Source: Candidatus Parcubacteria bacterium (GTDB taxonomy: Bacteria > Patescibacteriota > Minisyncoccia > Minisyncoccales > JAGMDC01). Taken from it: a DNA stretch of 64,000 nucleotides. The translations under genes were made by a program, and so were the position numbers. Under the pieces are notes generated by a model. It did no database searches, had not been told where the DNA came from, and saw only the letters and a list, made by a program, of their open reading frames with translations. This document shows, in pieces, positions 1,762-46,278 of this stretch. Positions within the stretch are counted from its first letter, which is position 1; each line of letters starts with the position of its first letter. The stretch spans positions 155,651-219,650 of the forward strand of contig JAGMDC010000003.1 in NCBI GenBank assembly GCA_023128895.1. Direction: 5' to 3'.

Positions 1762-1767
1762 ATTTCA

Positions 1768-3171: not shown

Positions 3172-3180
3172 AATGGTTCT

Positions 3181-3342: not shown

Positions 3343-3907
3343 TAGCGAGTTTAAATGCTTTTTTATTTAATTCCAAATATTTTTTTGCCACTGCTTGCTC
3401 AATTGCTTTTAGAATTGAACTTGGCTTCAAAGGAATAATTTTATTACGAGAAGCGTAACTTAATAAATAAACGCCTGCAACAACATTTTTGCCCAATTCT
3501 TTTTCGCAAATATCTGCTGCCGGGATTACAATTATATTTTTAGTAAATCTTTGGATTTCTTTTACAATGGCTTTTTCGGTTATGGATTTTTGGCCCAAAA
3601 TCGGAATAAAAAATTTATTGATTAAAAATTTCGTTTGCTTGCCAGCATAATAGCAGGATTTGAGACATTCCTGCATTTCCAGCCCTAAAATCAAATCAGC
3701 GTTAGCGCGCGCGACTAAAGGAGAAAAAACTTTTTTTCCGAATCTAAGATGGACTTCCACTGACCCGCCCCTTTGGCTCAAGCCGTGAAGTTCAGATGTT
3801 TTCACGTCATAACCCTCTATCAAAGCCGCTTCAGCCAAAATCTGCAGAAGCGTAATCACTCCCTGCCCTCCTGTCCCAACAATAACCATATTAAAATCTT
3901 TATTCAT
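3314..3907 (-). CDS. iorB: indolepyruvate/2-oxoacid:ferredoxin oxidoreductase, beta (IorB-type) subunit
   Basis: MVIVGTGGQGVITLLQILAEAALIEGYDVKTSELHGLSQRGGSVEVHLRFG is the canonical IorB/gamma-domain N-terminus. Confidence 0.75.
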   Translation of the reverse strand: MNKDFNMVIVGTGGQGVITLLQILAEAALIEGYDVKTSELHGLSQRGGSVEVHLRFGKKVFSPLVARANADLILGLEMQECLKSCYYAGKQTKFLINKFFIPILGQKSITEKAIVKEIQRFTKNIIVIPAADICEKELGKNVVAGVYLLSYASRNKIIPLKPSSILKAIEQAVAKKYLELNKKAFKLAKTLNYEMGL

Positions 3908-4017
3908 AATATATTATATAATATCATAAAAAAAATTTCCTGGCAATTTTTGTAAAAAAAAGGTCCCAAAAATTCAAATGGAATTTCAGAACCAATGATT
4001 GTTCTATTGTCTCAACG

Positions 4018-8755: not shown

Positions 8756-8757
8756 AA

Positions 8758-9297
8758 TTACTTATTTGTTTTATATCTCTCAACCGCGTCTTTGATAATT
8801 TCCAATGCTTTTTCTTTGTTTTCAAAGCCGTCAACTTTTACATGTTTGTATTTTTCCGGTTCTAATTTTTTATAATCCTCAAAATAAATCTGTATTTCCT
8901 TTTTATAATGCTCTCCCAAGTCATTTATATCCTGAATTTCCTTAAAACGGGGATCAATTTCTTCTATTGGCACAGAAATGATTTTATTATCTAAACCTGC
9001 CTCGTCTTTCATTAAAAGCACGCCAATTGGCCTTGCCTTAACAACGCATCCTGGGAAAGTGGGATAAGTAGTCAAAAGTAAAACATCTAAAGCATCCCCG
9101 TCTTCTGAATGCGTCTGGGGCACAAAGCCGTAATCAAAAGTATAAAACATTGGCGAATAATTTACTCTGTCCAACGTAAAATATCCGCCCTGTTCGCTGT
9201 ATTCATATTTATTGTTGCAGCCCTTTGGAATATCCACTACTACATTGATTTGTTCCGGCAAATTCTCGCCGGCTGGAATATCTTTATAAAGATTCAT
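8758..9297 (-). CDS. ppa: inorganic pyrophosphatase (family I)
   Basis: NVVVDIPKGCNNKYEY, DGDALDVLLL and DNKIISV motifs. The stop lies 2 nt before the iorA start. Confidence 0.9.
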   Translation of the reverse strand: MNLYKDIPAGENLPEQINVVVDIPKGCNNKYEYSEQGGYFTLDRVNYSPMFYTFDYGFVPQTHSEDGDALDVLLLTTYPTFPGCVVKARPIGVLLMKDEAGLDNKIISVPIEEIDPRFKEIQDINDLGEHYKKEIQIYFEDYKKLEPEKYKHVKVDGFENKEKALEIIKDAVERYKTNK

Positions 9298-9394
9298 AAT
9301 ATTTCATGAAACTTATAACTTATAATTTATAACTTAAAGTTATAAATTTTAAGTTTCAAGTTTCAGATTTTAAATTTTAGCCCTATGTTACATT

Positions 9395-11212: not shown

Positions 11213-11242
11213 AATAAAAATTCAAAATGAAAAATTTAGGTA

Positions 11243-13681
11243 TCAAACTACAATATTTATCAACTTGCTTTTTACAAAAATGACTTTCTTAATGGGTTTG
11301 TGCTCTATGTACTTTTTAACTTTTTCTTGTTTCAATGCCAATTTTTTTGCCTCGGCTTCTGAAATATCAGCCAAGACTTCTATTTTATCGCGCACCTTTC
11401 CATTGATTTGGATAACTAAAGTAATTTTTTCTTCCTTAATCAATTTTGGATCATATTTTGGCCATTGCTCCTCAAAAATTGATTTTTTATTTTTTGATTT
11501 ATGCCACAATTCTTCTGCGATGTGCGGAGCGAACGGACTTAATAATTTCAATAACAATTGATAATCACATAAAGATAATTGTTTTTGTTTTTGTTTTTCC
11601 ATTTCATTCACTAAAACCATTAAAGCGCTAATAGCAGTATTAAACTTAAGATTTTCAATATCCTCTGTCGCTTTCTTTATTGTCTGATGAATTAATCTTT
11701 CTAATTTATCATTATGAGACTGCCGCAGGATTCTTGCGTTGCCAGTAGGCTCCCTCAGAATGACAATGCCTATATTCCAAACTTTGTCTAAAAATCTTTT
11801 CGCGCCAATCACGCCATTGGAATTCCACGTAATTGCTTGCTCAAACGGTCCCATAAACATTTCATAAATCCTTAAACTGTCAGCCCCGTATTTCTCAATA
11901 AGAGCATCTGGATTAACCACATTTCCAAATGACTTTGACATCTTTTTTCCATCTTTTGCTAACACAATTCCATGGGAAGTTCGGCGCAAATACGGTTCAT
12001 CCTGCGGCACAACGTTAATATCATAAAGAAATTTATACCAAAAACGCGAATATAAAAGATGGAGGGTAGTATGCTCCATACCGCCGTTATACCAGTTCAC
12101 GGGAAGCCAGTATTTTAATTTTTCCTTACTTGCCAATGCTTTACTGTTATGCGGGTCAGCATATCGGATAAAATACCAAGATGACCCGGCCCAATTAGGC
12201 ATAGTATCGGTTTCTCTTTTCGCATCTGCGCCGCACTTTGGACATTTACAATTTACCCATTCTGGAATGCTTGCCAAAGGCGACTCTCCAGTGCCTGTTG
12301 GCTGGTATTTTTCAATATAAGGAAGCTCTATTGGCAGGTCTTTGTATGGCACAGGCACTATTCCGCATTTTTGGCAATGGACAAGCGGAATAGGTTCTCC
12401 CCAATAATGCTGTCTGGAAAACACCCAATCCCTTAATTTGTAATTTACTGTTTCTCTGCCAAACCCCTGCTTGCGCGCGTAATTTGTCATTCTCTTTCGC
12501 GCCTGTTTTGAAAATAAATTATCAAATTGCCCTGAATTTATTAAAACACCGTCTTGCGTAAACGCTTTCGGTTCAATTTCTTTATTTTGAATTACAGGAC
12601 TTATTGGCAAATTATATTTCTTGGCAAACGCAAAGTCGCGCTCGTCGTGCGCTGGAACAGCCATTATCGCGCCGGTGCCGTAATGCGGCAAAACATAATC
12701 AGCAGTAAAAATAGGAATTTCTAAATGGTTGAACGGATTTATTGCTTTAATTCCTTTCAATTCTATGCCTGTTTTTTCTTTATCTAATTCGGTCCGTTGT
12801 AAATCGCTTTTCTTCCTGCTTTTTTCAAGATATTTTTTAACCTCTTTGTAATTCTTGATTCTCAATTTTTGATTCTTGATTATTTCGTGTTCAGGCGCCG
12901 CAACCAAATATGTACATCCAAAAATAGTATCAACCCTTGTGGTAAACACTTTAATGTAATCTTGTTTTGAACTTTGGATTTTGAACTTTATTTCTGTTCC
13001 TTCGGACTTTCCTATCCAGTTTATCTGCTGGGTCTTTACTCTATCCGGATAGTCCACTTTTTCTAAATCGTCTATCAGACGGTCCGCGTATTCAGTTATT
13101 TTCAACATCCATTGCTTTAGTTTCTTTTTTTTCACTTCCGCGCCGCATCGCTCGCATTTTCCCGAAACTACTTCTTCGTTAGCAAGCCCTATCTTGCAGG
13201 AAGGGCACCAATTTATCGGCATCTCCGCTTGATATGCCAAACCCTTTTCAAACAATTTTAGAAAAATCCATTGCGTCCACTTATAATATTTCGGGTCAGT
13301 GGTATTAATCTCCCTGCCCCAGTCAAGAGATATGCCAAGGGACTTAAATTGTCTCTTAAAATTAGCAATGTTCCGCGCAGTTGTTTTCTGCGGATGAGTT
13401 CCAGTTTTAATGGCATAATTTTCCGCTGGCAAGCCAAAAGCGTCCCAGCCAATTGGAAACAAAACATTATAGCCCTCCATTCTTTTTTTGCGCGCGGCAA
13501 CATCTAAGGCAATATATGACCGGCAGTGGCCTGTGTGGAGACCATCACCAGATGGATAAGGAAATTCAAATAAAATATATTGCTTTGGCTTTTTTGCAAA
13601 ATCCTTTGCCCTGTAAAGCCCTTGATTTTCCCAAAACTTTTGCGATTTAGATTCTATTTTCTTATGATTATATTCTTCCAT
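11243..13681 (-). CDS. leuS: leucine--tRNA ligase (bacterial type)
   Basis: FPYPSGDGLHTGHCRSY (HIGH region), KMSKSFGN, and the zinc CxxC pairs of the CP1 region. Confidence 0.95.
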   Translation of the reverse strand: MEEYNHKKIESKSQKFWENQGLYRAKDFAKKPKQYILFEFPYPSGDGLHTGHCRSYIALDVAARKKRMEGYNVLFPIGWDAFGLPAENYAIKTGTHPQKTTARNIANFKRQFKSLGISLDWGREINTTDPKYYKWTQWIFLKLFEKGLAYQAEMPINWCPSCKIGLANEEVVSGKCERCGAEVKKKKLKQWMLKITEYADRLIDDLEKVDYPDRVKTQQINWIGKSEGTEIKFKIQSSKQDYIKVFTTRVDTIFGCTYLVAAPEHEIIKNQKLRIKNYKEVKKYLEKSRKKSDLQRTELDKEKTGIELKGIKAINPFNHLEIPIFTADYVLPHYGTGAIMAVPAHDERDFAFAKKYNLPISPVIQNKEIEPKAFTQDGVLINSGQFDNLFSKQARKRMTNYARKQGFGRETVNYKLRDWVFSRQHYWGEPIPLVHCQKCGIVPVPYKDLPIELPYIEKYQPTGTGESPLASIPEWVNCKCPKCGADAKRETDTMPNWAGSSWYFIRYADPHNSKALASKEKLKYWLPVNWYNGGMEHTTLHLLYSRFWYKFLYDINVVPQDEPYLRRTSHGIVLAKDGKKMSKSFGNVVNPDALIEKYGADSLRIYEMFMGPFEQAITWNSNGVIGAKRFLDKVWNIGIVILREPTGNARILRQSHNDKLERLIHQTIKKATEDIENLKFNTAISALMVLVNEMEKQKQKQLSLCDYQLLLKLLSPFAPHIAEELWHKSKNKKSIFEEQWPKYDPKLIKEEKITLVIQINGKVRDKIEVLADISEAEAKKLALKQEKVKKYIEHKPIKKVIFVKSKLINIVV

Positions 13682-19555: not shown

Positions 19556-20617
19556 TTATTCTTGAACAACTATTTTAATGGGAATTCCGTCAGCTGTAAC
19601 AGCCATAGAAACAGGCACAGTGGGTTCAAATCTTTGAAATACTTTGCCCATTTTTCCAGTGCTGTTTATATCGTAATAATATAGAATAATACCGTCGGAA
19701 GAAACATAGTCAATTGTCTCTCTTCTAAAAGTTAAATTATAAACTGACGCGCTCCCGCTACAATATGAACCTGACCCGCTTGTAGTAATCTCAACTACAT
19801 CGCCTTGTTTTACATGATAGTACCAGGTTCCTGATTTTGTCTCGGTCTTGCATTCCCATCTCATACAGGAACTAAACGCCCAAAAAGTACACACTGAATA
19901 ACCATGAGCAGTGAGTTGTTCTTTCTCTTCTCCGTTGATATAAAGCTTAAAACTCTCCCAGTACCCTCTACACCTAGCGCTAACATTTGCAGTAACCTTT
20001 ATTACTCCTTCCCCATCTACTATTACCTCCTCCCCCTCTATTAGTGTCAAAGAATCGCTTCCGCTCTTGCCTATATGTAAAATCTCTTCTGTATTGTCGC
20101 TCTGAAACTCTTCTCCTATTGGCATTGCTCCGCCAGAATAACACATTAGTTTTCCGTCATTATTTGCCATCAAAAAACAATCATTAAATCCAGAAATATG
20201 AACATCACCCGCTCCGTCAATTTTCATTCTTTCTGTCCCCTGAGTATAAAACTCTATTTCTTCCTCTTCTTTATCTAAATAAATAGACGCTGCTGTTGGG
20301 GCGCCGGTATCTGACAATAAATGTAAATCATTATGCCCTTTTATGTAATCAGCTCTTTCAATATCTCCCTTATTACCATCAGCATTGAGATAAAGATGCC
20401 CGTCTGAAACAGTAAGAGCGGAAACAGTAAGATCCCCTGCTTTGGTCTGGGAATCACTGCTTATATTAATCAGTTCATAAATATTATCTGCTGGCAAAAT
20501 ATTTGGCGGGACATCGCCCGGCTCATCCCAAGCAGAAACAATATAGCCTATTACCGCGCTGGAAACCAAAATTACAGACGACAAAATAATTATTTTTTGA
20601 AAATTTGAACAAAGCAT
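19556..20617 (-). CDS. anchored surface protein, triplicated family member a (AWDEP motif)
   Basis: NFQK + helix + SAWDEPGDVPP. Blocks shared with the next two genes are GDIERADYIKG, EILHIGKSGSDS, FKLYINGEEKEQLTAHGY and SGSGSYCSGSASVYNLTFRR. Confidence 0.75.
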   Translation of the reverse strand: MLCSNFQKIIILSSVILVSSAVIGYIVSAWDEPGDVPPNILPADNIYELINISSDSQTKAGDLTVSALTVSDGHLYLNADGNKGDIERADYIKGHNDLHLLSDTGAPTAASIYLDKEEEEIEFYTQGTERMKIDGAGDVHISGFNDCFLMANNDGKLMCYSGGAMPIGEEFQSDNTEEILHIGKSGSDSLTLIEGEEVIVDGEGVIKVTANVSARCRGYWESFKLYINGEEKEQLTAHGYSVCTFWAFSSCMRWECKTETKSGTWYYHVKQGDVVEITTSGSGSYCSGSASVYNLTFRRETIDYVSSDGIILYYYDINSTGKMGKVFQRFEPTVPVSMAVTADGIPIKIVVQE

Positions 20618-20629
20618 ATTGAAAATTAA

Positions 20630-21646
20630 TTATTCAACAATAATAATAATCGGAATCCCATCAGCAGTAACAGCTATGGAAGTAGGGACCGCGAACTGTT
20701 TTTGTTTTGTCGCCTTTTCCATTTCTCCACTAGTATCTTTGTCATAGTAATACAAAATATCTTCTTCGGAAAAAACATACTCAACTCTATCTCTTCTAAA
20801 TGTTAAATTATAAACTGAAGCATTCCCGCTGCAATATGAACCGGACCCGCTTGTAGCAAGCTTAATTACATCGCCTTGTTTTATATGATAATACCAGGTT
20901 CTTGATTTTGCATCGGTCGCGCATTCCCACCTAAGGCAAGAGTGAAACCCCCACCAAGTACACTCCGCATAACCATTAGCAGTAAGTTGTTTTTCTAAAT
21001 TTCCATTGATATAAAGCTTAAAATTCTCCCAATACCCGCTGCACCTAGCGCTAACATACGCGGTAACCTTTATTACTCCCTCTTCGTCTATTATTGTCCA
21101 TGAATCGCTTCCGTTCTTGCCTATATGCAAAATCTCTACCTGCGTGCTTTGGAACTTATCATCTCCCGGCGCGCCTGTGCCCTCATAACATCCTATTTTT
21201 CCATTCTCATTCACCTCTAAAAAGCAATTCTTTAAGCCGGAAATATACATATCGCCGTTCCCATCAATCTTAACTCCTTCTATCGCTTGTGTGCTCAATT
21301 TTATTGCTTTCTCTCCTTTATCTAAATCAAGACAAGCATTATCCTCTGCGCTAGACCATAAATGCAAGCCATCCTGTGCTTTTATATAATTCACTCTTTC
21401 AATATCACCTCCTTTGCTGTCGTCCTCATTAAGATAAAGCTTGCCGCCTAAAGTCGTAAGTTCAGTAACAGTAAGGTCTCCGCTTTTTATTTGGGCCTCT
21501 GGACCGGCGTTGATTGGGGCATCAAGATTCCATGGCAAAGCCAATGGTGGCTCATCCCAAGCAAAAACCATATACCCAGTAATTGCGCTGAAAACTAAAA
21601 TTCCAGCAACTAAAGCAATTATTTTGTGAAAATTTAAATAAATCAT
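20630..21646 (-). CDS. anchored surface protein, triplicated family member b (AWDEP motif)
   Basis: NFHK + helix + FAWDEPPLALP. It has the same conserved blocks as its neighbours. Confidence 0.75.
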   Translation of the reverse strand: MIYLNFHKIIALVAGILVFSAITGYMVFAWDEPPLALPWNLDAPINAGPEAQIKSGDLTVTELTTLGGKLYLNEDDSKGGDIERVNYIKAQDGLHLWSSAEDNACLDLDKGEKAIKLSTQAIEGVKIDGNGDMYISGLKNCFLEVNENGKIGCYEGTGAPGDDKFQSTQVEILHIGKNGSDSWTIIDEEGVIKVTAYVSARCSGYWENFKLYINGNLEKQLTANGYAECTWWGFHSCLRWECATDAKSRTWYYHIKQGDVIKLATSGSGSYCSGNASVYNLTFRRDRVEYVFSEEDILYYYDKDTSGEMEKATKQKQFAVPTSIAVTADGIPIIIIVE

Positions 21647-21651
21647 ATAAT

Positions 21652-22656
21652 TTAAGGATTAGGAAATGAAATAGGCAGTCCGTCAGATGTTATTGCCACA
21701 GAGACAGGGACATCGGGATTATACTGATTTTCTACTTCATTCATCTTGCCCGTGCTATTGATATCATAGTAATATAAAATAGTGCCTTCGCAAGAAGCAT
21801 AGTCAATCACATCTCTTTTATATCTGAGTTTATAAACTGAAGCGCTCGCGCTAGTATTATAACTTGTTCCGCTTGTAGTAATCTTAACTACATCACTTTG
21901 CTTTATATGATAATACCAGATTCCTGAATTATTATTCTCCCAGGAATCATGCCATGGCCAATCGTATCGAAAGCCGCCGGAAACACTGATATGCTCTTTT
22001 TCTTCTCCATTGATGTAAAATTTAAAATCTGCCACTGTGCTAGAACCATACGCAGATATGCTGGCAGCCACCTTTATTACTACCTCTTGCTCTTCGTTTG
22101 GCACCGTCCAGGAATCGCTTGCGTTTATGTCTATATGTAAAATTTCTGTTTGGCTGGGCCAAAATTCATCACCGTCTGGTATCTGTCCGCCAACATAACA
22201 TCTTATTTTTCCATCTTCATCTACTTCTAAGAAACAATCACTTAATTTGAGAATATGCATTTTACCATTTTTATCAACTTTCATTTTTTCATCTCCTTTG
22301 ATAGAAAATTTTATCTCTTTATTTTGGTTATCTAAATGAACAGACGCTATATTAAACGGATCCGAATCTAAATATAAACCATCTTGGCCTTTTATGTAAT
22401 CTACCCGCTCAATATCTCCTTCTTCGCCATCATCATTAAGAAAAACCTTATTGCCCGAAGCAAAAAGAGAAGAAACAGCAAGAGCGCCTTGTTTGGTTTG
22501 AGCAACAGGGCCAATATTTATCGGCGTCGGCGTGTTTTCCTGCGGCTGCTCAGCAGTGGGACCATCCCACGCAAAAACAATATATCCCATTGCAGCGCTC
22601 AAAACTAAAACTCCGCCTGTAAGCGCAATTGTTTTTTGAAATTTTGAGAAATACAT
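21652..22656 (-). CDS. anchored surface protein, triplicated family member c (AWDGP motif)
   Basis: KFQK + helix + FAWDGPTAEQP. This is the most divergent copy and lacks the Cys pattern of a and b. Confidence 0.75.
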   Translation of the reverse strand: MYFSKFQKTIALTGGVLVLSAAMGYIVFAWDGPTAEQPQENTPTPINIGPVAQTKQGALAVSSLFASGNKVFLNDDGEEGDIERVDYIKGQDGLYLDSDPFNIASVHLDNQNKEIKFSIKGDEKMKVDKNGKMHILKLSDCFLEVDEDGKIRCYVGGQIPDGDEFWPSQTEILHIDINASDSWTVPNEEQEVVIKVAASISAYGSSTVADFKFYINGEEKEHISVSGGFRYDWPWHDSWENNNSGIWYYHIKQSDVVKITTSGTSYNTSASASVYKLRYKRDVIDYASCEGTILYYYDINSTGKMNEVENQYNPDVPVSVAITSDGLPISFPNP

Positions 22657-22710: not shown

Positions 22711-23100
22711 TTAAAATTCTTCCACAGCGTTTTCAAAATGTAAAATTTCTGGCTTTTGGGTTTCCAAATCAATTTTAATGCTAATAATATCAATTTGCCA
22801 GGGCGTATCTAAAGAAAATTTATTTTGTGTCAGCCAAATTTGCGCGAGTTTCTGCAATTTTCTCTGTTTGCGAAAATCAACTCTTTGCTCCGGGGCGATT
22901 CCTTTGCCTGAACTCAAAGTTTTCACTTCCACAAACCTTATAACATCGTCTTTTCCCGCGATAATATCAATCTCCCCGAATTTGCGTCCTGTCCTTGTTT
23001 TCTGAATCCAATTTCTCGCCAATATATCAAAATCTTTGCTTTCAAGATAATCACGCGCAATCTTTTCCCCTAATTCGCCTAATTGTTTACGGTTTATCAT
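22711..23100 (-). CDS. yraN: YraN family (UPF0102) endonuclease-like protein
   Basis: GELGEKIARDYLESKDFDILARNW...GEIDIIAGKDDVIRFVEVKT is the typical YraN core. Confidence 0.8.
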   Translation of the reverse strand: MINRKQLGELGEKIARDYLESKDFDILARNWIQKTRTGRKFGEIDIIAGKDDVIRFVEVKTLSSGKGIAPEQRVDFRKQRKLQKLAQIWLTQNKFSLDTPWQIDIISIKIDLETQKPEILHFENAVEEF

Positions 23101-23270
23101 AGTGGTGTTTGTTGGACAAAGTCCGAACTTATTTTAAACAAAATCCCGACGCTGACTGACCCCCGACTATATACACTTTTAGTGTTTTATTTCGGCTGGC
23201 TCGGGGGCAGGCTGCTGCCTGCCCCCTCGCTTTAATTTATTCGGGAAAACAGGCGGTTTTAAGGTAAAAA
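23099..23270. repeat. 172-bp inverted repeat, left copy (IR-L)
   Basis: The reverse complement of 24674-24845 matches with 5 mismatches by hand alignment. It contains a 10-bp GC hairpin, GGGGGCAGGC-tgct-GCCTGCCCCC, at 23203-23226. Confidence 0.9.
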
Positions 23271-23384
23271 AAGGTTAAAAAATTTGGTTGACTTTATTTT
23301 TTATTTGGATTATTATTAAAATAAATAAGATAAATAATCCACAATTTAGCCCATACATTATAATGGTATATCATTAAAGAAGGT

Positions 23385-23624
23385 ATGTCAAGTCAAAATA
23401 ATATCTTAAAATCAAATATCGGTAAAAATATAAAAAAATTGAGACAGAAAAAAGGGATTTCTCAAGATAGATTATCAAAGATAGCCGATTTATCTCTGAA
23501 TACAATTGTGAATATTGAAACCGGTAATAATCCAAATCCAACCCTTGAGACACTTCAAAAAATAGCTAAAGCTCTCAATGTTTCCGTTGATGAGTTATTG
23601 AAATTAATATATGACCAGAAATAA
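23385..23624 (+). CDS. XRE-family helix-turn-helix transcriptional regulator
   Basis: IGKNIKKLRQKKGISQDRLSKIADLSLNTIVNIETGNNPNPTLETLQKIAKALNVSVDELL is a classic Cro/C1 HTH. Confidence 0.85.
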   Translation: MSSQNNILKSNIGKNIKKLRQKKGISQDRLSKIADLSLNTIVNIETGNNPNPTLETLQKIAKALNVSVDELLKLIYDQK

Positions 23625-24471
23625 AATTATTAAAGCATTGATAACAAGATTATTTGTAGCACTTATTGCCTTTAGTGTTGTTGGTTGGATTATTTTATTC
23701 GGTAAGAATCTGCCGGATAGTGTCACGCCTATTGTTTACGCGATAATCGCTGTCTCGATTATTACTTCAATTTATGTTCTCTGGAAGAAACCAAATTTAC
23801 TGCGTAATAAAAAAGTTATCATTGGGATGGTCGTTTTTATAATCGTTGGTGCCATCGGCTGGTTAACATCAATCTCTGAAATTACTGAATGCAGACCTTA
23901 CAAATGTGGAGAAGATTTTATTTGTGCAAAACCAACTGATTTAGGTTTAAAAATAACAATGGGCGAATGTTCTTCTGAGTTTATAGAAAATATAGATTTC
24001 TATTGCGTAAAGGAAAATAATATTTGTATTAAACATCCAATTAATTTCACGATTGATCAAGTAGAAAAATCTATTACGGACTATTTATTAACACAAAAAT
24101 ATTTCAGCTGGAAGACAGCAACTGACAGCCGTAATTTTTGCGTTATTGAGAATTTAAATCCGGCAGAAGACGGCTTGTTTCCATTGTATGTTTGGGTTCG
24201 CTGCGGGGAGTTTGTTTTGCAAAACGGCAAATTAAAGGGATTAAGCGGGATATCGGCGCCGGCTAAAATAAATTATCCGAACCACTTGTCGTTTTATGAT
24301 ATAAATAAAATGTCTCATGAAACGCCAAGAAGCGGTTCGCTGTATTCAAAAGACATCAAGGCAATATTTCCTCTAAATGTACAAGAAGTGATTTTTGGTT
24401 TTTATATTCCCAATCTTTCCAATATCAGTAAAAAACTTGAGTCAGTTGCGCTTAGTGGCTTGAAGCAATAA
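23611..24471 (+). CDS. membrane protein of unknown function (3 predicted TM helices plus Cys-containing extracytoplasmic domain)
   Basis: Overlaps the XRE gene by 14 nt. Hydrophobic segments are FVALIAFSVVGWIILF, IVYAIIAVSIITSIYVLW and IIGMVVFIIVGAIGWL. No recognisable catalytic motif. Confidence 0.6.
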   Translation: MTRNKIIKALITRLFVALIAFSVVGWIILFGKNLPDSVTPIVYAIIAVSIITSIYVLWKKPNLLRNKKVIIGMVVFIIVGAIGWLTSISEITECRPYKCGEDFICAKPTDLGLKITMGECSSEFIENIDFYCVKENNICIKHPINFTIDQVEKSITDYLLTQKYFSWKTATDSRNFCVIENLNPAEDGLFPLYVWVRCGEFVLQNGKLKGLSGISAPAKINYPNHLSFYDINKMSHETPRSGSLYSKDIKAIFPLNVQEVIFGFYIPNLSNISKKLESVALSGLKQ

Positions 24472-24673
24472 TGAAAACTAATAAAAAAATGAAAGTCAAT
24501 CGGAATTTTTACCAACCTATCTGTCAAGAGTGGGCTAAAAAACTACTTTTGGCAAGTTAAACCGGCCCTTCAAAGTTGACATTCGGGAATGTCAAGTAAA
24601 TGTCAACTTTGAGAAAAATTTGCATTACGGAATGCAAGGCGGACGCAAACTTTTCATTCTGTATTTTCGGCCA

Positions 24674-24845
24674 TTTTTACCTTAAAACCGCCTGTTTTCC
24701 CGAATAAATTAAAGCGAGGGGGCAGGCAGCAGCCTGCCCCCGAGCCAAAGAAAATAAAACACTAAAAGTGTATGTAGTCGGGGGTCAGTCAGCGTCGGGA
24801 TTTTGTTTAAAATAAGTTCGGACTTTGTCCAACAAACACCACTAT
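24674..24845. repeat. 172-bp inverted repeat, right copy (IR-R)
   Basis: See IR-L. Together the two copies bracket 23271-24673. Confidence 0.9.
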
Positions 24846-24912
24846 AAGCGATTTGCGTCGGATGTCGGCGGCTTCGCCGCCTCTGCCGCCGAGCCATTAC
24901 GCCGCTCGGCGG

Positions 24913-24992
24913 ATAAATAAATATAATCCCAGGGTTTTTTGAAATCAATTGAAAATTTTTGAAAGGAAATTTTAGGGTTCGAGCCGATTTTC
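24913..24992 (-). pseudogene. relic of a serine-recombinase 3' end (inverted relative to the intact gene)
   Basis: The minus-strand translation KKIGSNPKISFQKFSIDFKKPWDYIYL aligns with KKIGSDCTIASQKLSIDFKKPWNYLYF at the C-terminus of the 25091-26710 product. The DNA is also similar to 26455-26535. Confidence 0.55.
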
Positions 24993-25090
24993 TTCTTTCG
25001 CCTTCGGCGAAAGGCAAAGCGAAATTTTATTAATTTTATTAAATTGTCGGCGCAAGCGTTTCTTTTTTCAATTATCAAATTATTAATACT

Positions 25091-26710
25091 ATGATTAAAT
25101 ATTTCATCTATTGCAGAAAATCGTCAGAGGACGAAGAACGGCAAATCTTGTCTATTGAAGCCCAACTCGCGGAACTGCGCGAATACGCAAAGCAAAACGG
25201 GATTTTTGTTGTCCGCGAGTTTGTTGAATGTAAAACCGCCAAAGAGCCGGGGCGGGAAATATTTAATCAAATGCTTTCCGAGATTGAAAAAGGAAACGCC
25301 GAGGGAATTTTAGCGTGGAATCCAGACAGACTGGCTCGCAATTCTATTGACGGCGGAAAAATCATCTATCTCGTTGACACTGGAAAAGTCGCCTCGCTAA
25401 AATTCCCGACATTTTGGTTTGAGCCAACGCCGCAGGGAAAATTTATGTTATCTGTCGCTTTTGGGCAGGCAAAATATTACACCGACAATTTAAGAGAAAA
25501 CATTTTGCGGGGAATTAGGCAAAAAATTCGCAGAGGCGAACTTTCGGCAAAAGCCCCAATCGGATATTTCAACGAACCGAGATTGAGAACTATTGAACCA
25601 GACAGAAATACTTTCAAAAAAGTGAAAAAGATTCTGTGGGCTTTTGCCTCTGGAAAATACACGCTAACAGCAATTCAAAGCAAAATGTTTTCTCTTGGCT
25701 TGATTGGTAAGGACGGAAAACCGCCTCATCTGTCAACAATACAGAGTATACTCACAAATCCGTTTTACTACGGACATTTCAAATATCGCAATGAAATTCA
25801 TCAAGGAAGCCACAAGCCAATGATTTCAAAGAAACTTTTTGACAAAATCCAGCAAGCGCTCAAAGACAATAGCAAACCGCGACATAGTAAAAAAGACAAA
25901 GGTTTTCTTTTTTTGGGTTTTGCCAAATGTGGAGAGTGCGGCTATTGTATTACCGCTGAACGCAAGATTAAAAAAAACGGCAAGAAATACACATATTATC
26001 GCTGTACCAAAAAAAGTAAAATTCAAAAATGCTCTCAAAACCGATTTTTGCGGGAAGAAAAACTCGCGGAACAGGTAAAAGAAATTTGTCAAAAAGTTTC
26101 TTTGTCTGATGATTGGCAAGAAAAATATCTGAAAAAAGTTGATGAATGGGAAAAAGAAAATTGCACATTGTCAAATCTTTTCGCTCAAAATCTCAAAACA
26201 GAATTAAACAAAGTCAAAACAAAAATACAACGCCTCACTGACGCCTATTTGGAAGGCGGTTTTGAATTATCGGAATTTCAGCAAAATAAAAACGCCTTAA
26301 TGGCGCGAAAAAAAGATATTGAGGAAAAATTATCAGATTTTGAGCGAAAAGGAAATAATTGGCTCGGACTTGTTCGGAATTGGATAATTGAAGCCAATCA
26401 AGCTAAAAATCTCGCTTTAACAGAAAATTTTGCCGAGATGAAAAATTTTCTGAAAAAAATCGGCTCGGACTGTACAATCGCCTCTCAAAAACTTTCAATT
26501 GATTTCAAAAAACCTTGGAATTACCTTTATTTTGCGAAGCAAAACAAGGTTCTTGAAGCGAAAACGAAAGCGAAAGGTTCTTATTTTTTGCCTTTGCAAA
26601 CGAGGGGCGAAGCCCCGAGCGACGCGGAAAATCAAGTAAATCGTAAAATGTGGACCTGGCGGGAATCGAACCCACATCAGAGCAATGCGAATGCCCTCTT
26701 CTACCATTAA
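25091..26710 (+). CDS. large serine recombinase (resolvase domain + recombinase domain + zinc ribbon + coiled coil)
   Basis: YCRKSSEDEERQILSIEAQ (catalytic Ser region), DRLARN, CGECGYCITAE...YYRC zinc ribbon, and a long coiled coil. The last about 60 nt of the ORF are antisense to tRNA-Ala, so the true C-terminus is uncertain. Confidence 0.85.
   Translation: MIKYFIYCRKSSEDEERQILSIEAQLAELREYAKQNGIFVVREFVECKTAKEPGREIFNQMLSEIEKGNAEGILAWNPDRLARNSIDGGKIIYLVDTGKVASLKFPTFWFEPTPQGKFMLSVAFGQAKYYTDNLRENILRGIRQKIRRGELSAKAPIGYFNEPRLRTIEPDRNTFKKVKKILWAFASGKYTLTAIQSKMFSLGLIGKDGKPPHLSTIQSILTNPFYYGHFKYRNEIHQGSHKPMISKKLFDKIQQALKDNSKPRHSKKDKGFLFLGFAKCGECGYCITAERKIKKNGKKYTYYRCTKKSKIQKCSQNRFLREEKLAEQVKEICQKVSLSDDWQEKYLKKVDEWEKENCTLSNLFAQNLKTELNKVKTKIQRLTDAYLEGGFELSEFQQNKNALMARKKDIEEKLSDFERKGNNWLGLVRNWIIEANQAKNLALTENFAEMKNFLKKIGSDCTIASQKLSIDFKKPWNYLYFAKQNKVLEAKTKAKGSYFLPLQTRGEAPSDAENQVNRKMWTWRESNPHQSNANALFYH
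26580..26635 (-). repeat. nested-hairpin element, short copy inside the recombinase 3' end
   Basis: The minus strand reads GATTTTCCGCGTCGCTCG-GGGC-ttc-GCCC-CTCGTTT...AAAATAAG, with the same flanks as the HAD-gene copies. Confidence 0.5.
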
Positions 26711-26721
26711 AATACAGGCCC
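26651..26721 (-). tRNA. tRNA-Ala (anticodon CGC)
   Basis: Hand fold: acceptor GGGCCTG/CAGGTCC with the G3:U70 alanine identity pair, anticodon stem GGGCA/TGCTC, loop TTCGCAT, T-arm GTGGG-TTCGATT-CCCGC. 71 nt, no encoded CCA. Confidence 0.85.
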
Positions 26722-26733
26722 ATATTGTTTTTG

Positions 26734-26804
26734 TCGGGATGCCGAGATTCGAACTCGGGCTGCCGCCTCCCGAAGGCGGTATGCTACCATTACACCACAC
26801 CCCG
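26734..26804 (-). tRNA. tRNA-Pro (anticodon CGG)
   Basis: Hand fold: acceptor CGGGGTG/CATCCCG, anticodon stem CCGCC/GGCGG, loop TTCGGGA, T-arm CCGAG-TTCGAAT-CTCGG. 71 nt, no encoded CCA. Confidence 0.85.
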
Positions 26805-26811: not shown

Positions 26812-28290
26812 TTATGTTACCCAGTACTTGCTTTTTGTCATTTCGTCGCGCTTCATTTCCAATGTTTGGCGTTCTTTTATCGCTTTCTTGCCTAATTCAA
26901 AAATTTCTGAATCAGACAATTTACCCAATTTTTCAATTTCATTTTCTAAAAATTCTTTCGTGTTTTTTTTTGGGTCTTCTAACACTTTACCCAATAAAAT
27001 ATCCAACACAGCGCCAACCTTGGGTCCTTGTCTAATTTCTAAAATTTTTATCACATCATCACCGCGCAGTTTAAGTTTTTTAACTGAAATAGGGTCCTGC
27101 CTCACTTTTTCAATCAAATATTTCAAATGCCTTAACTTGTACGGCTCTGCTTTTGGCACTCCGGACCCGATTCTGTCGCAAAATCTTAACTGTAAGAGTT
27201 CCTCCATATTTTCTATGCCAACTTGCCGCACCAATCTCCGCACTGACGCCTCGCCCACTTCTTCTACATTATAATAGAACAAATGGTACCTCACTAATTT
27301 CACAACCTTTTCAATATCTTTTCTGGAAAACCGCAAGCGCTGTAAAATTCTCGCTGTTATTTTAGCGCCAACTATTTCATGGTTGTAAAAAGTGGCGTCC
27401 TCACCCTTGCCTCTCTTTGTTATGGGTTTGCCGATATCATGAAACAGCGCGGACAACCTGACATATTTACTGTAATTTTTCTGAACAGCGTATTTCAAGG
27501 AACGCACAAGATGTTCGTAAACATTGTAAATATGATGCTTGCTTTGGTCTATTCCGCGGCAATCTTCCAATTCTGGGATAATATGCTTCAAAAGCCCAAG
27601 TTCCTGCAAAAGTTCTATACCCTCCCCGGCGCGCTCACTCATAATAATTTTCATAAACTCGTCTCTTACTCTTTCTCTTGAAACCATATTCAGCAATCCA
27701 GAATTTTTTTGAATTGCTTTTTTTGTTTTTGCTTCAATTTTCCAGCCCTCTCCTAATGTCGCGACAAACCTCACAGCCCGCGCCAACCTCAGCGCGTCCT
27801 CCTGAAACCTGTCTTCCGCGTCACCCACTGCGCGAATAACTTTATTTTCTAAATCCTTTTGCCCTTCGAACAAATCTATAACTTTTAACTTTTCTCTTTT
27901 AATTTTTAACTTAGACGCCTCTGGCGTCGCTGCCATTGCGTTCACTGTAAAATCCCTTCTTCCTAAATCCTGTTCAATTGTTTCTGCCCATTCTATCTTG
28001 TCAGGATGTCTTTTATCACTATACTTTGACTCAACCCTGAACGGCGTTATTTCAATCTCCTGAAAATCTTCGTCTTCCACCGCCACCCTTACTGTGCCAA
28101 AATTATTATCCAAATAACTATCTGGAAATATTTTTACAATCTCGTCCGGCTTGGCGCTTGTTGCAATATCCCAATCCTTTGGACTATTTCCGCGCAAAAG
28201 ATCTCGGACGCACCCGCCCACAATATACGCTTCAAATCCCTGCTTCTCTAATTGCTCAACAACAAATTGTACTTGCTTTGGAATTTCCAT
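26812..28290 (-). CDS. cca: CCA-adding tRNA nucleotidyltransferase with HD domain
   Basis: AYIVGGCVRDLLRG...DWDIAT (class II nucleotidyltransferase head) and LFHDIGKP (HD domain). Confidence 0.85.
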   Translation of the reverse strand: MEIPKQVQFVVEQLEKQGFEAYIVGGCVRDLLRGNSPKDWDIATSAKPDEIVKIFPDSYLDNNFGTVRVAVEDEDFQEIEITPFRVESKYSDKRHPDKIEWAETIEQDLGRRDFTVNAMAATPEASKLKIKREKLKVIDLFEGQKDLENKVIRAVGDAEDRFQEDALRLARAVRFVATLGEGWKIEAKTKKAIQKNSGLLNMVSRERVRDEFMKIIMSERAGEGIELLQELGLLKHIIPELEDCRGIDQSKHHIYNVYEHLVRSLKYAVQKNYSKYVRLSALFHDIGKPITKRGKGEDATFYNHEIVGAKITARILQRLRFSRKDIEKVVKLVRYHLFYYNVEEVGEASVRRLVRQVGIENMEELLQLRFCDRIGSGVPKAEPYKLRHLKYLIEKVRQDPISVKKLKLRGDDVIKILEIRQGPKVGAVLDILLGKVLEDPKKNTKEFLENEIEKLGKLSDSEIFELGKKAIKERQTLEMKRDEMTKSKYWVT

Positions 28291-35478: not shown

Positions 35479-36165
35479 CTTTGCCGCAATAATTTTTGGT
35501 TTATTAGTTCGCGCCAAAAAATATTTCAAAAAAATATTTTTTGATTAAACCAATAAATCCTTTCATTTTATTATAATACTCACTCTTATTGTACCACTTC
35601 CTAAAAATAGCGCAAAACAAAACTGTCAAAGGTTCAACCTCCGACAGTAAAAATTTCCAGTATGATATACTAAAAATACAAAGACTCATTTTCCGAACCA
35701 TCACCGGATGGCGGCGTGCCCGGGACTACCGGGATAGGAAATGGGTCGTTTTTTTTCATTTTCAGATTCTACACAAGTTTTTTACACATTCAACTCCTTC
35801 AAAAACAAAAGATTGAATCCCTAATTTTTTGGCTACTTCAATATTCTCCTTTGAATCGTCAAAATAAATACATTCTTCGGGTTTTAAATTATTCTCTACT
35901 AATAAGTTTTTGTAGGCTTCCGGATTTGGTTTAACAAATCCTGTTTGCCAAGAATAATAAACTTTATCAAAAATTTCTTCTAAAAATGGAAATGTTTTTT
36001 TATAATAATTTGCTCTTTCAATAAAATTATTCGACAAAACAAAAATTTTAACGCCTCTATTTCTTAATTTTTTAACCAATTCAATCATCTCGGGCACTTC
36101 TTTTTCTGCGCTAAACCAGAAATCAAAAAATTGTTCTTCTGCTAGTTCAATGCCCCATTTTTCTA

Positions 36166-46227: not shown

Positions 46228-46278
46228 CGCGTTAGAGGGGAGGCATCTGTCTCTCTTATTTTTTTTGCGCTGTTACTG

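What the first reader, a model, noticed from the sequence alone, without database searches (positions are those of the whole stretch)
23099..24845. XRE plus membrane-protein cassette bracketed by 172-bp near-perfect inverted repeats beside a serine recombinase
23099-23270 and 24674-24845 are reverse complements of each other, with 5 mismatches in 172 by hand alignment. Four of the mismatches are clustered next to an internal 10-bp GC hairpin. They enclose 1403 bp carrying an HTH regulator, an overlapping 3-TM protein, a possible 29-aa coupled ORF (24471-24560) and operator-like palindromes. IR-L starts at the yraN start codon, and IR-R is 245 bp from the recombinase ATG. Repeats this long and this similar should recombine or be maintained by a dedicated enzyme. 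Two options are an invertible (phase-variable) segment, or a non-autonomous transposon-like cassette with very long terminal inverted repeats. Either would be unusual for such a small genome.
Basis: partly seen in the sequence, partly recalled or inferred. Interest (0 to 1): 0.65.

Follow-up and report, generated by a model that had tools for sequence, protein, structure and literature searches.

The report
Mobile element inserted beside tRNA-Ala
The 172-base mirrored repeats are real. They are two of the three attachment junctions of a 3.5-kb mobile element, cassette plus neighbouring recombinase, inserted at the end of a tRNA-Ala gene, and the same unusual and apparently undescribed design recurs in well over a hundred ultra-small (CPR) bacteria.

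Summary
The repeat is confirmed: 23099-23270 and 24674-24845, 172 nt, 5 mismatches. In four other assemblies of the same population the arms are identical.

It is not a free-standing inverton or transposon. It is part of one inserted unit, about 23102-26653, bounded by a shared GTGG core:
- yraN|GTGG|a (attL-like)
- a'|CCAC|b (an intact attP-like site, inverted)
- b'|GTGG|tRNA-Ala (attR-like)

Two close relatives carry CCA-enzyme, tRNA-Pro, tRNA-Ala and yraN without the element. The window departs from them exactly at these cores.

The same layout (repeat A, cargo, repeat A', repeat B, recombinase, repeat B', tRNA) recurs among 169 loci that encode related recombinases, nearly all labelled as CPR bacteria. 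The target is mostly tRNA-Ala or tmRNA.

The outer 54 nt of each 172-nt arm encodes a conserved recombinase C-terminus (CLLDKVRTYFKQNPDAD*). It is in frame only when b' is joined to a, so integration swaps the enzyme's tail for tRNA-derived sequence.

Cargo is a regulator resembling R-M controller proteins, plus variable genes, often restriction-modification or defence genes.

Excision to a circle with two inverted repeats follows from this layout. One wrap-around contig fits it but does not prove it. Frequent flipping of the cargo is not supported. I found no published description.

The parts
22711..23100 (-). yraN (UPF0102), chromosomal left flank. Its ATG lies 1 nt from the left junction core.
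   Evidence: Pfam PF02021, E 1e-20. Homology to the element-free relatives L184 and L185 resumes at TATGAT of this start.
23102..23105 (.). Left junction core GTGG (site s1, attL-like: yraN flank | GTGG | a).
   Evidence: Three-site comparison in 14 or more loci: unique flank, (G)TGG, conserved 'a'. Window sequence read directly.
23099..23270 (.).
   Evidence: 5 mismatches to the right arm in the window, 0 in L001, L002, L004 and L005.
23106..23159 (+). Coding sequence for the conserved recombinase C-terminal tail CLLDKVRTYFKQNPDAD*. It is in frame with the recombinase only after b' is joined to a, for example by excision.
   Evidence: Translation. Family-wide conserved tail across the core. 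Codon-position entropy 0.70/0.36/1.15, and 41% synonymous codon differences versus 13% and 5% in the other frames.
23203..23226 (+). 10-bp GC hairpin followed by TCGCTTTAATTTATT. It looks like a terminator for transcription running inward, that is, downstream of the tail codons.
   Evidence: RNA fold -38 kcal/mol, z = -4.4. The T tract is weak and the consensus scan did not call it. GC-rich hairpins sit at the same place in L007 and L010.
23385..23624 (+). XRE/HTH_3 regulator resembling R-M controller (C) proteins. First gene of the cargo operon.
   Evidence: Pfam HTH_3, E 6e-17. PADLOC Control_protein and capH. The same family is the first cargo gene in at least 16 of 28 loci.
23611..24471 (+). 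Cargo gene: 286-aa membrane protein of unknown function (3 TM helices, a small Cys-rich beta part, an alpha/beta C-terminal domain).
   Evidence: No Pfam, NCBIfam or PADLOC family. AF2 model pLDDT 81, no PDB fold match. Its N-terminal and C-terminal halves each have separate homologues at 65-77% identity.
24674..24845 (.).
24785..24838 (-). Second copy of the tail-coding sequence (CLLDKVRTYFKQNPDAD*).
   Evidence: Translation of 24785-24997 on the minus strand.
24839..24842 (.). Middle junction core CCAC (site s2: a' | CCAC | b), an intact attP-like site in inverted orientation.
   Evidence: In other loci IR-A' and IR-B overlap by 3-6 nt at this core.
24843..24997 (-). Spare, inverted copy of the recombinase 3' end (b). 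It reads KKKIGSNPKISFQKFSIDFKKPWDYIYLSAERRNGSAAEAAKPPTSDANRL* on the minus strand, with TAG (24842-24844) in place of the first Trp codon.
   Evidence: IR-B in the window is only 81 nt at 84% (24915-24995 vs 26452-26532), whereas the family norm is 124 or 133 nt at 95% or more.
25091..26710 (+). Large serine recombinase. In this integrated state the last 19 codons (26654-26710) are tRNA-Ala sequence read as protein (...KMW|TWRESNPHQSNANALFYH*).
   Evidence: Pfam Resolvase, Recombinase and Zn_ribbon_recom. PDB hits SPbeta SprA and A118 integrase. C-terminus analysis.
26452..26653 (+). b': right arm of IR-B, the true 3' end of the recombinase gene up to the core. It carries a roughly 53-nt insertion relative to L007 and L010.
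26650..26653 (.). Right junction core GTGG (site s3, attR-like: b' | GTGG | tRNA-Ala). On the tRNA strand it is CCAC: positions 71-72 of the acceptor stem, the discriminator base, and one further base (C74 where CCA is encoded).
   Evidence: The window is identical to the tRNA-Ala of L184 up to ...GGTCCAC and diverges immediately after.
26650..26721 (-). tRNA-Ala(CGC), the integration target. tRNA-Pro follows at 26733-26804 and the CCA-adding enzyme at 26812-28290.
   Evidence: ARAGORN and Rfam. Pfam for the CCA enzyme.

Best explanation
Window 23102-26653 is one integrated copy, about 3.55 kb, of a family of small integrative elements of CPR/Patescibacteria driven by a large serine recombinase (LSR).

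The three sites. The element's recombination site (attP-like) has the form b'-GTGG-a. Here b' is the last 42-45 codons of the recombinase gene, and a begins with the final 15-19 codons of the same ORF followed by a hairpin. The crossover core therefore lies inside the recombinase ORF. The element carries this long repeat twice, in inverted orientation. Integration at the 3' end of tRNA-Ala cuts one copy at the core. That leaves 'a' next to the chromosomal flank (IR-L, attL-like) and b' next to the tRNA (attR-like). The other copy, IR-R plus b, stays whole between the cargo and the recombinase. The weaker repeat around the recombinase is the pair of 'b' parts.

Consequence for the enzyme. In the integrated state the recombinase loses its conserved tail and ends in translated tRNA sequence. 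The full-length gene is restored by excision (s1 x s3), which gives a circle with two inverted repeats separating a cargo segment from a recombinase segment. In most family members it could also be restored by inversion of the recombinase segment.

Cargo. In the window it is a regulator resembling R-M controller proteins plus a membrane protein. In relatives it is mostly restriction-modification or other defence genes.

Shown: the anatomy, the junction logic, the coding tail, the element-free relatives, family-wide recurrence, and concerted evolution of the arms.

Inferred: excision to a circle, a functional role for the tail swap (a built-in lock or directionality switch), and gene conversion as the process that keeps the arms alike.

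State of this copy. The window's copy is partly decayed. IR-B is 84% with indels, and the spare 3' end carries a stop codon.
For: 1. Recurrence. The layout flank|A-cargo-A'|B-rec-B'|tRNA occurs at recombinase homologues of 62-81% identity, first in L007 and L010 and then widely.
- Of 169 loci, 138 have IR-B, mostly 124 or 133 nt, with 87 of 108 untruncated pairs at 95% or more.
- 53 loci have a complete IR-A pair: median 187 nt, 42 at 98% or more, cargo 1.0-8.0 kb.
- 85 loci have a' upstream and a tRNA downstream.
- The target is tRNA-Ala in 104 of 124 loci and tmRNA in 6.

2. Three-site signature. s1 = unique flank-(G)TGG-a; s2 reverse complement = b'-(G)TGG-a; s3 = b'-(G)TGG-tRNA. The shared core is 3-6 nt.

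3. Coding tail. The ORF crosses the core into 'a' and gives ...WW|CLLEKVRTHFEQNPD* in nearly all loci, with a clear codon-position and synonymous-change signature. About 17 of the 120 best homologue clusters in the database end with this tail; most others end in tRNA-derived or truncated tails. The window's arms encode CLLDKVRTYFKQNPDAD*.

4. Element-free relatives. L184 (yraN 91% identical) and L185 (76%) have CCA-enzyme, tRNA-Pro, tRNA-Ala and yraN with no recombinase or cassette. The window diverges from them exactly after ...GGTCCAC and rejoins at the yraN start.

5. Forms without a tRNA.
- L095 runs 1.5 times round an 8,026-bp unit holding one perfect 448-nt inverted repeat, a full-length recombinase and no tRNA.
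- Eight further contigs have the recombinase followed by 'a': L166 (a on both sides) and L096-L100, L161 and L168.
- In L032, L035 and L066 the recombinase points away from the tRNA.

6. Horizontal spread. The recombinase is 65-80% identical across many CPR classes, at different tRNA genes and with different flanks.

7. Enzyme class. It is a genuine LSR: Pfam domains and hits to SPbeta SprA and A118 integrase.

8. Concerted evolution. Arms are 98.7-100% identical within an element but 84-97% between related elements.
Against: - No read-level evidence. No excised circle, flipped form or empty site was seen for this organism itself. Its recombinase cluster has a single member with the tRNA-derived tail. 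All assemblies that span the locus show one orientation.
- The circular walk in L095 is also a legal cyclic path in the de Bruijn graph of a purely integrated element, because of the perfect repeats. Short-read contigs that show b'-O-a could in principle be mis-resolved repeats.
- The left half of the inferred attB is not conserved between loci. This is unusual for LSRs, which normally read both half-sites.
- In the relatives, tRNA-Ala and yraN are separated by 435-510 nt of other sequence. The window is therefore not a clean insertion relative to them.
- attP x attP or attP x attR reactions are not standard LSR chemistry, so the reason for the duplicate remains unexplained.
- Eight or more loci show a' but no left arm within 10 kb.
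- The window's IR-B is degenerate, so this copy may no longer move.
Confidence: 0.7

Rival explanations
1. Classical phase-variable inverton. The neighbouring recombinase flips 23271-24673 between the 172-nt repeats to switch expression of the XRE/membrane-protein operon or of yraN.
For: - Long, near-identical inverted repeats lie next to a serine recombinase.
- Across the family the XRE-first operon is found in both orientations relative to the recombinase, about 19 minus and 8 plus.
- The arms evolve in concert, so they do interact.
- Assemblies often break at the arms.
Against: - The arms are symmetrical and each carries an inward-facing terminator-like hairpin. The cargo has a promoter-like site and a regulator of its own. 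Inversion therefore changes no local junction.
- Ten of ten pairs of loci with related cargo share orientation.
- All assemblies that span the locus in the same population show one orientation.
- The outer third of each arm is recombinase coding sequence, and the arm ends are att-type junctions shared with the tRNA site. An inverton does not need either feature.
- Assembly breaks are expected from any repeat longer than the k-mer.
Confidence: 0.1
2. Two separate mobile units that merely sit side by side: an IS-like element (b-rec-b', about 1.8 kb, with 124-133-nt terminal inverted repeats) that targets tRNA-like ends, and an independent cargo cassette bounded by 'a' repeats.
For: - Many database contigs are recombinase-only, 1.6-2.1 kb.
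- L174 has b-rec-b' between two different tRNA-Ala genes with no 'a'.
- Cargo is highly variable while the recombinase and repeats are conserved.
Against: - Recombinase-only contigs are what de Bruijn assemblers produce when a unique segment is flanked by repeats. They end about k-1 nt into a'.
- 'a' continues the recombinase reading frame and is under protein-level selection. It is found next to b in 85 or more loci.
- In the window the boundaries against the element-free relatives are the outer ones, s1 and s3, not s2.
Confidence: 0.1
3. Non-autonomous transposon-like cassette with 172-bp terminal inverted repeats, moved in trans by a transposase elsewhere.
For: Terminal inverted repeats flank a small gene set with no transposase between them.
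Against: - No target-site duplication: the flanks are ...GTTTATC and AAGCGAT....
- No other copy of the repeat in the 64-kb window.
- The right arm always abuts IR-B through a shared core.
- Arm sequences are specific to each locus apart from the coding part.
Confidence: 0.03
4. Static inverted duplication or assembly artefact with no function.
For: No orientation variant or empty site was seen in this population.
Against: - Five independent assemblies give the same structure.
- The same design is seen with different assemblers and in a record titled complete genome, L030 from CP055308.1.
- There is a coding signature in the arms and concerted evolution.
Confidence: 0.02

Closest known systems
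Large-serine-recombinase integrative elements (phage integrases phiC31, Bxb1, A118; SPbeta SprA; Anabaena XisF; staphylococcal CcrAB cassettes)
   Same: Same enzyme class: Resolvase, Recombinase and Zn-ribbon domains, aligning to SprA over residues 7-459 and to A118 integrase over 218-458. The junction logic is attP x attB giving attL plus attR, with a short shared core. The element is a small cargo-bearing island, as with SCC.
   Different: - At most about 30% identity to any phage or plasmid LSR, and below the NCBIfam cut-offs for XisF and Ccr.
- The target is the 3' end of a tRNA or tmRNA, with only one conserved half-site.
- The core lies inside the recombinase ORF.
- The attP-bearing segment is 190-520 nt long and is present twice, inverted.
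- No recognisable directionality factor.
- No phage genes.
SSV1-type (fusellovirus) integrases of archaea, where attP lies inside the int gene
   Same: Integration into a tRNA gene splits the recombinase's own ORF, so the integrated copy encodes an altered enzyme (established knowledge; reviewed in PMC8371274, title seen, not read here).
   Different: Those are tyrosine recombinases of archaeal viruses. Their gene is split into two large parts and no spare copy is kept. Here a serine recombinase loses only its last 15-19 codons, and an inverted spare 3' end is retained.
Yeast 2-micron plasmid (FLP/FRT). Chloroplast genomes have a similar inverted-repeat layout.
   Same: The predicted excised form is a circle with two long inverted repeats, each holding a recombinase target, that separate two unique segments, one of which encodes the recombinase. 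The arms are kept identical.
   Different: FLP is a tyrosine recombinase, and the plasmid replicates autonomously and flips freely. Here no replication gene is present, the element is mainly found integrated, and no flipping was seen among related copies. This is a resemblance in topology only.
Hin/Gin/Cin/Pin invertible segments and Bacteroides/Clostridioides invertons
   Same: A serine recombinase next to, or (as with hin) inside, a segment bounded by inverted repeats.
   Different: Those use small serine invertases, 26-34-bp sites and an enhancer, and inversion changes a promoter-gene or gene-fusion junction. Here the enzyme is an LSR, the repeats are 65-400 nt, and inversion would alter no cargo junction.
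Tn4451/Tn5397 (TnpX, TndX) serine transposons
   Same: An LSR both excises a circle and inserts it without known accessory proteins. Target use is loose (several different tRNAs here).
   Different: Those elements have no long inverted repeats, no tRNA-end specificity and no core inside the ORF.
Controller (C) protein-regulated restriction-modification cassettes
   Same: The first cargo gene matches PADLOC Control_protein models, and relatives carry Type II methyltransferases, DpnII and Type III Res/Mod genes behind it.
   Different: The window's cassette has no methyltransferase or nuclease, only a membrane protein of unknown function.

Membership tests
Large serine recombinase (LSR) integrative element | Recombinase with an N-terminal resolvase catalytic domain, a recombinase domain and a zinc-ribbon domain with coiled coil | tested here: met
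   Pfam PF00239, PF07508 and PF13408. Alignment to SprA 9dxh and A118 integrase 4kis.
Large serine recombinase (LSR) integrative element | Element bounded by attL and attR that share a short core with attP, with no long direct repeats | tested here: met
   s1, s2 and s3 share (G)TGG. The flanks swap exactly at the core in 14 or more loci and in the window. Boundaries checked against element-free relatives.
Large serine recombinase (LSR) integrative element | Reconstructable empty attB in related genomes | tested here: inconclusive
   L184 and L185 lack the element and match the window up to the cores, but they hold 435-510 nt of other DNA between tRNA-Ala and yraN. No exact empty site was found.
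Large serine recombinase (LSR) integrative element | Excised circular form carrying the attP joint | tested here: inconclusive
   L095 wraps round an 8,026-bp unit without a tRNA, and eight further contigs have the recombinase followed by 'a'. All are short-read contigs through perfect repeats, so misassembly is not excluded.
Large serine recombinase (LSR) integrative element | Catalysis of attP x attB recombination | not testable with these tools
   Needs an in vitro or in vivo assay.
Invertible (phase-variable) DNA segment | Both orientations coexist in one population | tested here: not met
   L001, L002, L004, L005 and L006, from four samples of the same population, all show one orientation. 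No reads were available, so a minority orientation could be missed.
Invertible (phase-variable) DNA segment | Inversion changes a promoter-gene or gene-gene junction | tested here: not met
   Symmetrical arms, inward-facing hairpins, a promoter-like site and a regulator of the cargo's own. Only the recombinase segment would change a junction: the enzyme's C-terminus.
Invertible (phase-variable) DNA segment | Related loci found in either orientation | tested here: inconclusive
   Both orientations occur across the family, but 0 of 10 closely related pairs differ.
TIR transposon / MITE-like non-autonomous cassette | Target-site duplication flanking the terminal repeats | tested here: not met
   Flanks are GTTTATC and AAGCGAT, with no duplication.
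TIR transposon / MITE-like non-autonomous cassette | Multiple dispersed copies of the same ends | tested here: not met
   No further copy in the window. In the fetched loci, 'a' was found only next to the recombinase or as its paired arm.
SSV-type 'attP inside the integrase gene' elements | Crossover core lies within the recombinase ORF, so integration alters the protein | tested here: met
   The ORF crosses the core, with a conserved tail in the b'-O-a form and a tRNA-derived tail in the integrated form.
SSV-type 'attP inside the integrase gene' elements | Tyrosine recombinase of the SSV family | tested here: not met
   The enzyme is a serine recombinase. The relation is an analogy, not membership.
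2-micron-like inverted-repeat circle | Autonomous replication and free isomerisation by the encoded recombinase | not testable with these tools
   No replication gene was recognised in any cargo. Isomer ratios need reads.

The most novel reading that the evidence does not exclude
A previously undescribed class of compact integrative elements specific to CPR/Patescibacteria.
- The attachment core of a large serine recombinase lies inside its own gene.
- The attP-bearing 3' end is kept as an inverted duplicate.
- Integration into tRNA-Ala or tmRNA ends replaces the enzyme's conserved C-terminal tail. This would act as a built-in lock or directionality switch, reset by excision or by inversion of the recombinase segment.
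- The elements would be a main vehicle for restriction-modification and other defence genes among these reduced genomes.
Probability: 0.45. Interest if true: 0.85.

Novelty: new variant of a known kind. Interest (0 to 1): 0.78.

Why it matters
- CPR bacteria have tiny genomes and are thought to be poor in mobile elements and defence systems. It marks a standard cassette site next to tRNA-Ala that carries R-M, OLD/AAA and other defence genes. This offers a concrete route for gene exchange in these organisms.
- The design puts the core inside the ORF, swaps the enzyme's tail on integration, and keeps an inverted spare copy. It would be a new way for a serine integrase to sense whether it is integrated, and purified proteins could test this directly.
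- Serine integrases are genome-engineering tools. A family aimed at a universal tRNA end, with natural full-length and tail-swapped forms, is a ready-made system for studying directionality, and possibly a genetic handle for CPR bacteria.
- Practical points. These repeats explain recurrent contig breaks near tRNA-Ala in CPR genome bins. Many database recombinases end in '...ESNP...' peptides that are simply translated tRNA.

Tried and rejected
- Non-coding RNA in the repeat. Rfam found nothing in or near the arms at gathering threshold or at E up to 5. The conserved part turned out to be protein-coding.
- tRNA remnant in the arm end. ARAGORN finds none. The likeness (TGG...GAAC) sits 5 nt out of register with the real tRNA and is better explained by coding constraint. 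A P-type versus B-type half-site reading was considered and left untested.
- Phage origin. Only two partial hits in IMG/VR, and at most about 28% identity in INPHARED phages.
- Plasmid origin. At most about 30% identity in PLSDB.
- Opposite orientation or empty site in the same population. Look-ups of the membrane protein, the recombinase and yraN found only the same arrangement, or contigs broken at the repeats: L003 is exactly the 1403-bp inter-repeat segment, and L094 ends at the inner edge of IR-L.
- Function of the membrane protein. No family match, and the AF2 model has no PDB fold match. The afdb50 library was unavailable. Its closest homologue, P0121, sits in a context with no element.
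- Flipping between related elements. All-against-all comparison of 53 cargo segments found 10 related pairs, none inverted.
- Literature. Seven full-text searches and one paper checked found no description of this architecture. The library lacks most subscription journals.


Full report
**1. The observation**

The inverted repeat is real. Arms 23099-23270 and 24674-24845 are 172 nt long, 1403 nt apart, with 5 mismatches at column 72 and columns 95-98. It is the longest inverted repeat in the window. It encloses an HTH_3/XRE gene (23385-23624) and an overlapping 286-aa membrane-protein gene (23611-24471).

The same locus was assembled from five samples of one ENA study. In L001, L002, L004 and L005 the left arm carries the right-arm alleles, so the arms there are 172/172 identical. 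In one sample the assembler broke at the repeat: L003 is exactly the 1403-bp inner segment, and L094 ends at the inner edge of IR-L. That is expected for any repeat longer than the k-mer. It is not evidence of inversion.

**2.

- The recombinase gene (25091-26710; Resolvase, Recombinase and Zn-ribbon domains) is itself bracketed by a weaker inverted repeat. Its right arm is the 3' end of the gene (24915-24995 vs 26452-26532, extending with indels).
- The ORF runs into a minus-strand tRNA-Ala(CGC) at 26650-26721. tRNA-Pro and a CCA-adding enzyme follow.

**3. The design recurs**

Look-ups of two homologous recombinases (81% and 75% identity) gave the same double structure.
- In L007, a 201-nt perfect repeat encloses one gene. 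It is directly followed, with a 5-nt overlap, by a 125-nt repeat enclosing the recombinase, whose right arm ends inside tRNA-Ala.
- In L010, a 130-nt repeat encloses four genes including an XRE gene, followed by an 83-nt repeat round the recombinase, ending in tRNA-Ala.

By their record titles, the 80 GTDB loci are nearly all CPR/Patescibacteria bins; the 80 JGI contigs carry no organism names.

| Measure, over 169 loci | Result |
|---|---|
| Loci with the recombinase-flanking repeat (IR-B) | 138 |
| Usual IR-B length | 124 or 133 nt |
| Untruncated IR-B pairs at 95% identity or more | 87 of 108 |
| Loci with a complete cargo-flanking pair (IR-A) | 53 |
| IR-A length | median 187 nt, range 65-397 |
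| IR-A pairs at 98% identity or more | 42 |
| Cargo length | 1.0-8.0 kb |
| Downstream gene is tRNA-Ala (any anticodon) | 104 of 124 |
| Downstream gene is tmRNA | 6 |
| Downstream gene is tRNA-Val | 7 |

Ser, Ile, Glu, Gly and Arg tRNAs occur once or twice each.

Many contigs start 45-140 nt upstream of IR-B, where the collapsed IR-A node begins.

**4. Junction logic**

The three junctions were aligned in every locus that has all of them.

| Site | Composition | Interpretation |
|---|---|---|
| s1 | unique flank - (G)TGG - a | attL-like |
| s2 (reverse complement) | b' - (G)TGG - a | intact attP-like |
| s3 | b' - (G)TGG - tRNA | attR-like |

The shared core is 3-6 nt. On the tRNA strand it is CCAC: the end of the acceptor stem, the discriminator base and C74. 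This is the signature of conservative site-specific recombination. The twist is that an intact attP-like site (s2) remains inside the element in inverted orientation.

In the window the cores are at 23102-23105, 24839-24842 and 26650-26653.

**5. Part of the 172-nt arm is coding**

When b' is read across the core into 'a', the recombinase ORF continues for 15-19 codons. It ends in a conserved peptide...WW|(C/S)(L/I)(L/F/Y)x(K/E)(V/I)RT(H/Y/F)(F/Y)x(Q/E)NP(D/E)*.

Among 35 distinct 'a' sequences, codon-position entropy is 0.70/0.36/1.15. 41% of codon differences are synonymous in this frame, against 13% and 5% in the other two frames.

In the integrated arrangement the ORF instead runs into the tRNA. 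It acquires an arbitrary tail (WWT(R/Q)GESNP..., the translated T arm) or stops at once. About 17 of the 120 best homologue clusters carry the conserved tail.

In the window:
- Both arms encode CLLDKVRTYFKQNPDAD* (23106-23159 on the plus strand, 24785-24838 on the minus strand).
- The hairpin that follows (-38 kcal/mol, z = -4.4) points inward, so it lies downstream of these codons.
- The actual recombinase ends ...KMW|TWRESNPHQSNANALFYH*.

**6. Element-free relatives**

L184 carries a yraN 91% identical to the window's, and L185 one that is 76% identical. Both have TyrRS and/or the CCA enzyme, tRNA-Pro, tRNA-Ala(CGC) and yraN, with no recombinase or cassette.

The window's tRNA-Ala matches that of L184 up to ...GGTCCAC and diverges at the next base. 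Homology resumes at TATGAT of the yraN start. The two outer cores are therefore the ends of the inserted unit.

The relatives are not perfect empty sites. They hold 435 nt (with a GIY-YIG ORF) or about 510 nt (with a 23S-rRNA-IVP ORF) at that spot.

**7. Forms other than the common one**

- L095 (12,034 bp, no tRNA) has a single perfect 448-nt inverted repeat round a full-length recombinase. Positions 54-4008 are identical to 8080-12034, so the contig runs 1.5 times round an 8,026-bp unit. The unit carries KAP NTPase, two methyltransferases, DpnII and XRE.
- Eight more contigs have the recombinase followed by 'a' (L166, L096-L100, L161, L168). In three loci (L032, L035, L066) the tRNA lies upstream and the recombinase points away from it. 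One locus (L174) has the recombinase between two different inverted tRNA-Ala genes.
- Caveat: because the repeats are perfect, a cyclic walk like that of L095 also exists in the assembly graph of a purely integrated element. These contigs are suggestive only. The coding signature of the tail does not depend on assembly. It requires that b'-core-a is joined to the gene for a meaningful part of the life cycle.

**8. Cargo**

In 28 loci the cargo is an operon. In at least 16 of them it starts with the same small XRE family, which matches PADLOC 'Control_protein' and capH. Very variable genes follow: Type II methyltransferases, AAA_15/AAA_21 with OLD-TOPRIM, NUDIX, PG-binding proteins, glycosyltransferases and radical-SAM enzymes.

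The window's second gene has no family or fold match.

**9. Do the segments flip?**

- Across the family the XRE-first operon is co-directional with the recombinase in about 8 loci (including the window) and divergent in about 19.
- Among 10 pairs of loci with related cargo, none differ in orientation.
- Every assembly that spans the window's locus agrees in orientation.
- The arms nevertheless evolve in concert. Identity is 98.7-100% within an element and 84-97% between related elements, with the same substitutions in both arms.

Something homogenises the arms, most simply gene conversion. Frequent inversion of the cargo is not supported. Inversion of the cargo would in any case change no local junction. 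Only the orientation of the recombinase segment matters, because it decides which tail the enzyme gets.

**10. State of the window's copy**

IR-B is 84% identical over 81 nt, with a roughly 53-nt insertion in b'. This places it among the ten weakest of 108 pairs. The spare 3' end carries TAG in place of the first Trp codon.

Inversion of the recombinase segment would therefore not restore the tail here. Excision (s1 x s3) would give ...KMW|CLLDKVRTYFKQNPDAD*. The recombinase ORF is otherwise intact.

**11. Comparison with known systems**

The enzyme is a large serine recombinase. It aligns to SPbeta SprA and A118 integrase and is nearest to XisF and CcrB in NCBIfam, but below their cut-offs. 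It shares at most about 30% identity with any phage or plasmid homologue.

- Membership in 'LSR integrative element' is met for the enzyme and the junctions. It is inconclusive for the empty site and the circle.
- A core inside the recombinase gene parallels SSV-type archaeal integrases, which are tyrosine enzymes. This is an analogy only.
- A circle with two inverted repeats each bearing a recombinase site parallels the 2-micron plasmid in topology only.
- The defining features of invertons and TIR transposons were tested and not met.
- Seven literature searches and one paper check found no description of this design. The library is incomplete.

**12. Verdict**

The 172-nt repeat is one visible piece of a widespread and apparently undescribed variant of serine-recombinase integrative element.

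| Claim | Confidence |
|---|---|
| Integrated-element reading with the three sites and the tail swap | about 0.7 |
| An excised circle with two inverted repeats really forms | about 0.5 |
| The tail swap is a functional switch | about 0.35 |

Noticed in passing
window 35683-35751 (+): Rfam DUF3800-IX RNA motif above its gathering score (51.3 bits against 36.8). A DUF3800 protein also occurs in the cargo of a related element (L043:1847-2686).
   Followed up: no
window 19556-22656 (-), with related N-termini near 16405 and 18126: Three tandem paralogous genes (353, 338 and 334 aa) with hydrophobic N-termini, 71-80% identical in DNA stretches. A gene matching the LVIVD repeat family lies beyond them in the fetched loci. 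This looks like an expanding family of surface or secreted proteins right next to the insertion site.
   Followed up: no
window 46200-56500 and 37326-39164: Long runs of 9- and 18-nt GC-rich periodic repeats (GGTCTGGTT and GGCCCGGCTGGCTTGGTT types) inside large duplicated blocks. Separately, four or five tandem 255-nt units. These are probably repetitive surface-protein genes.
   Followed up: no
L184:3484-3918 and L185:2231-2744 (the same chromosomal spot in element-free relatives): The gap between tRNA-Ala and yraN holds a small GIY-YIG gene in one relative and a 23S-rRNA-IVP (four-helix-bundle) gene in the other. The spot is a hot spot for different small insertions.
   Followed up: partly
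Database proteins P0001-P0120: Most catalogued recombinases of this family end in peptides such as WWTRGESNP or TWRESNPHQ, which are translated tRNA T-arm sequence. A third ending (WWCYFSICSNFF; P0042 with 114 members, P0056, P0059, P0099) looks like the 'a' tail read out of frame.
   Followed up: partly
L174:149-2023: A recombinase segment sits between two different tRNA-Ala genes in inverted orientation, with no 'a' arm. It could result from the internal attP-like site recombining with a second tRNA, which would mean element-driven chromosomal inversion.
   Followed up: partly
window 23099-23101 / 24843-24845: Identity between the two 172-nt arms runs 3 nt (ATA) beyond the GTGG core into what should be yraN-side flank. 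That extension creates the TAG stop in the spare recombinase 3' end. Gene conversion may have crossed the junction.
   Followed up: partly
window 23611-24471; P0121-P0218: The N-terminal (1-145) and C-terminal (145-286) halves of the membrane protein each have their own homologues at 65-77% identity, fused to other membrane domains (YhfC, DUF308). Some are in bins labelled as DPANN archaea. It looks like a modular, horizontally shuffled protein.
   Followed up: partly
L007:1035-2015, L010:15237-17491: LAGLIDADG homing-endonuclease genes and a 23S_rRNA_IVP gene lie near the elements in related genomes. Several kinds of selfish element are common in these small genomes.
   Followed up: no
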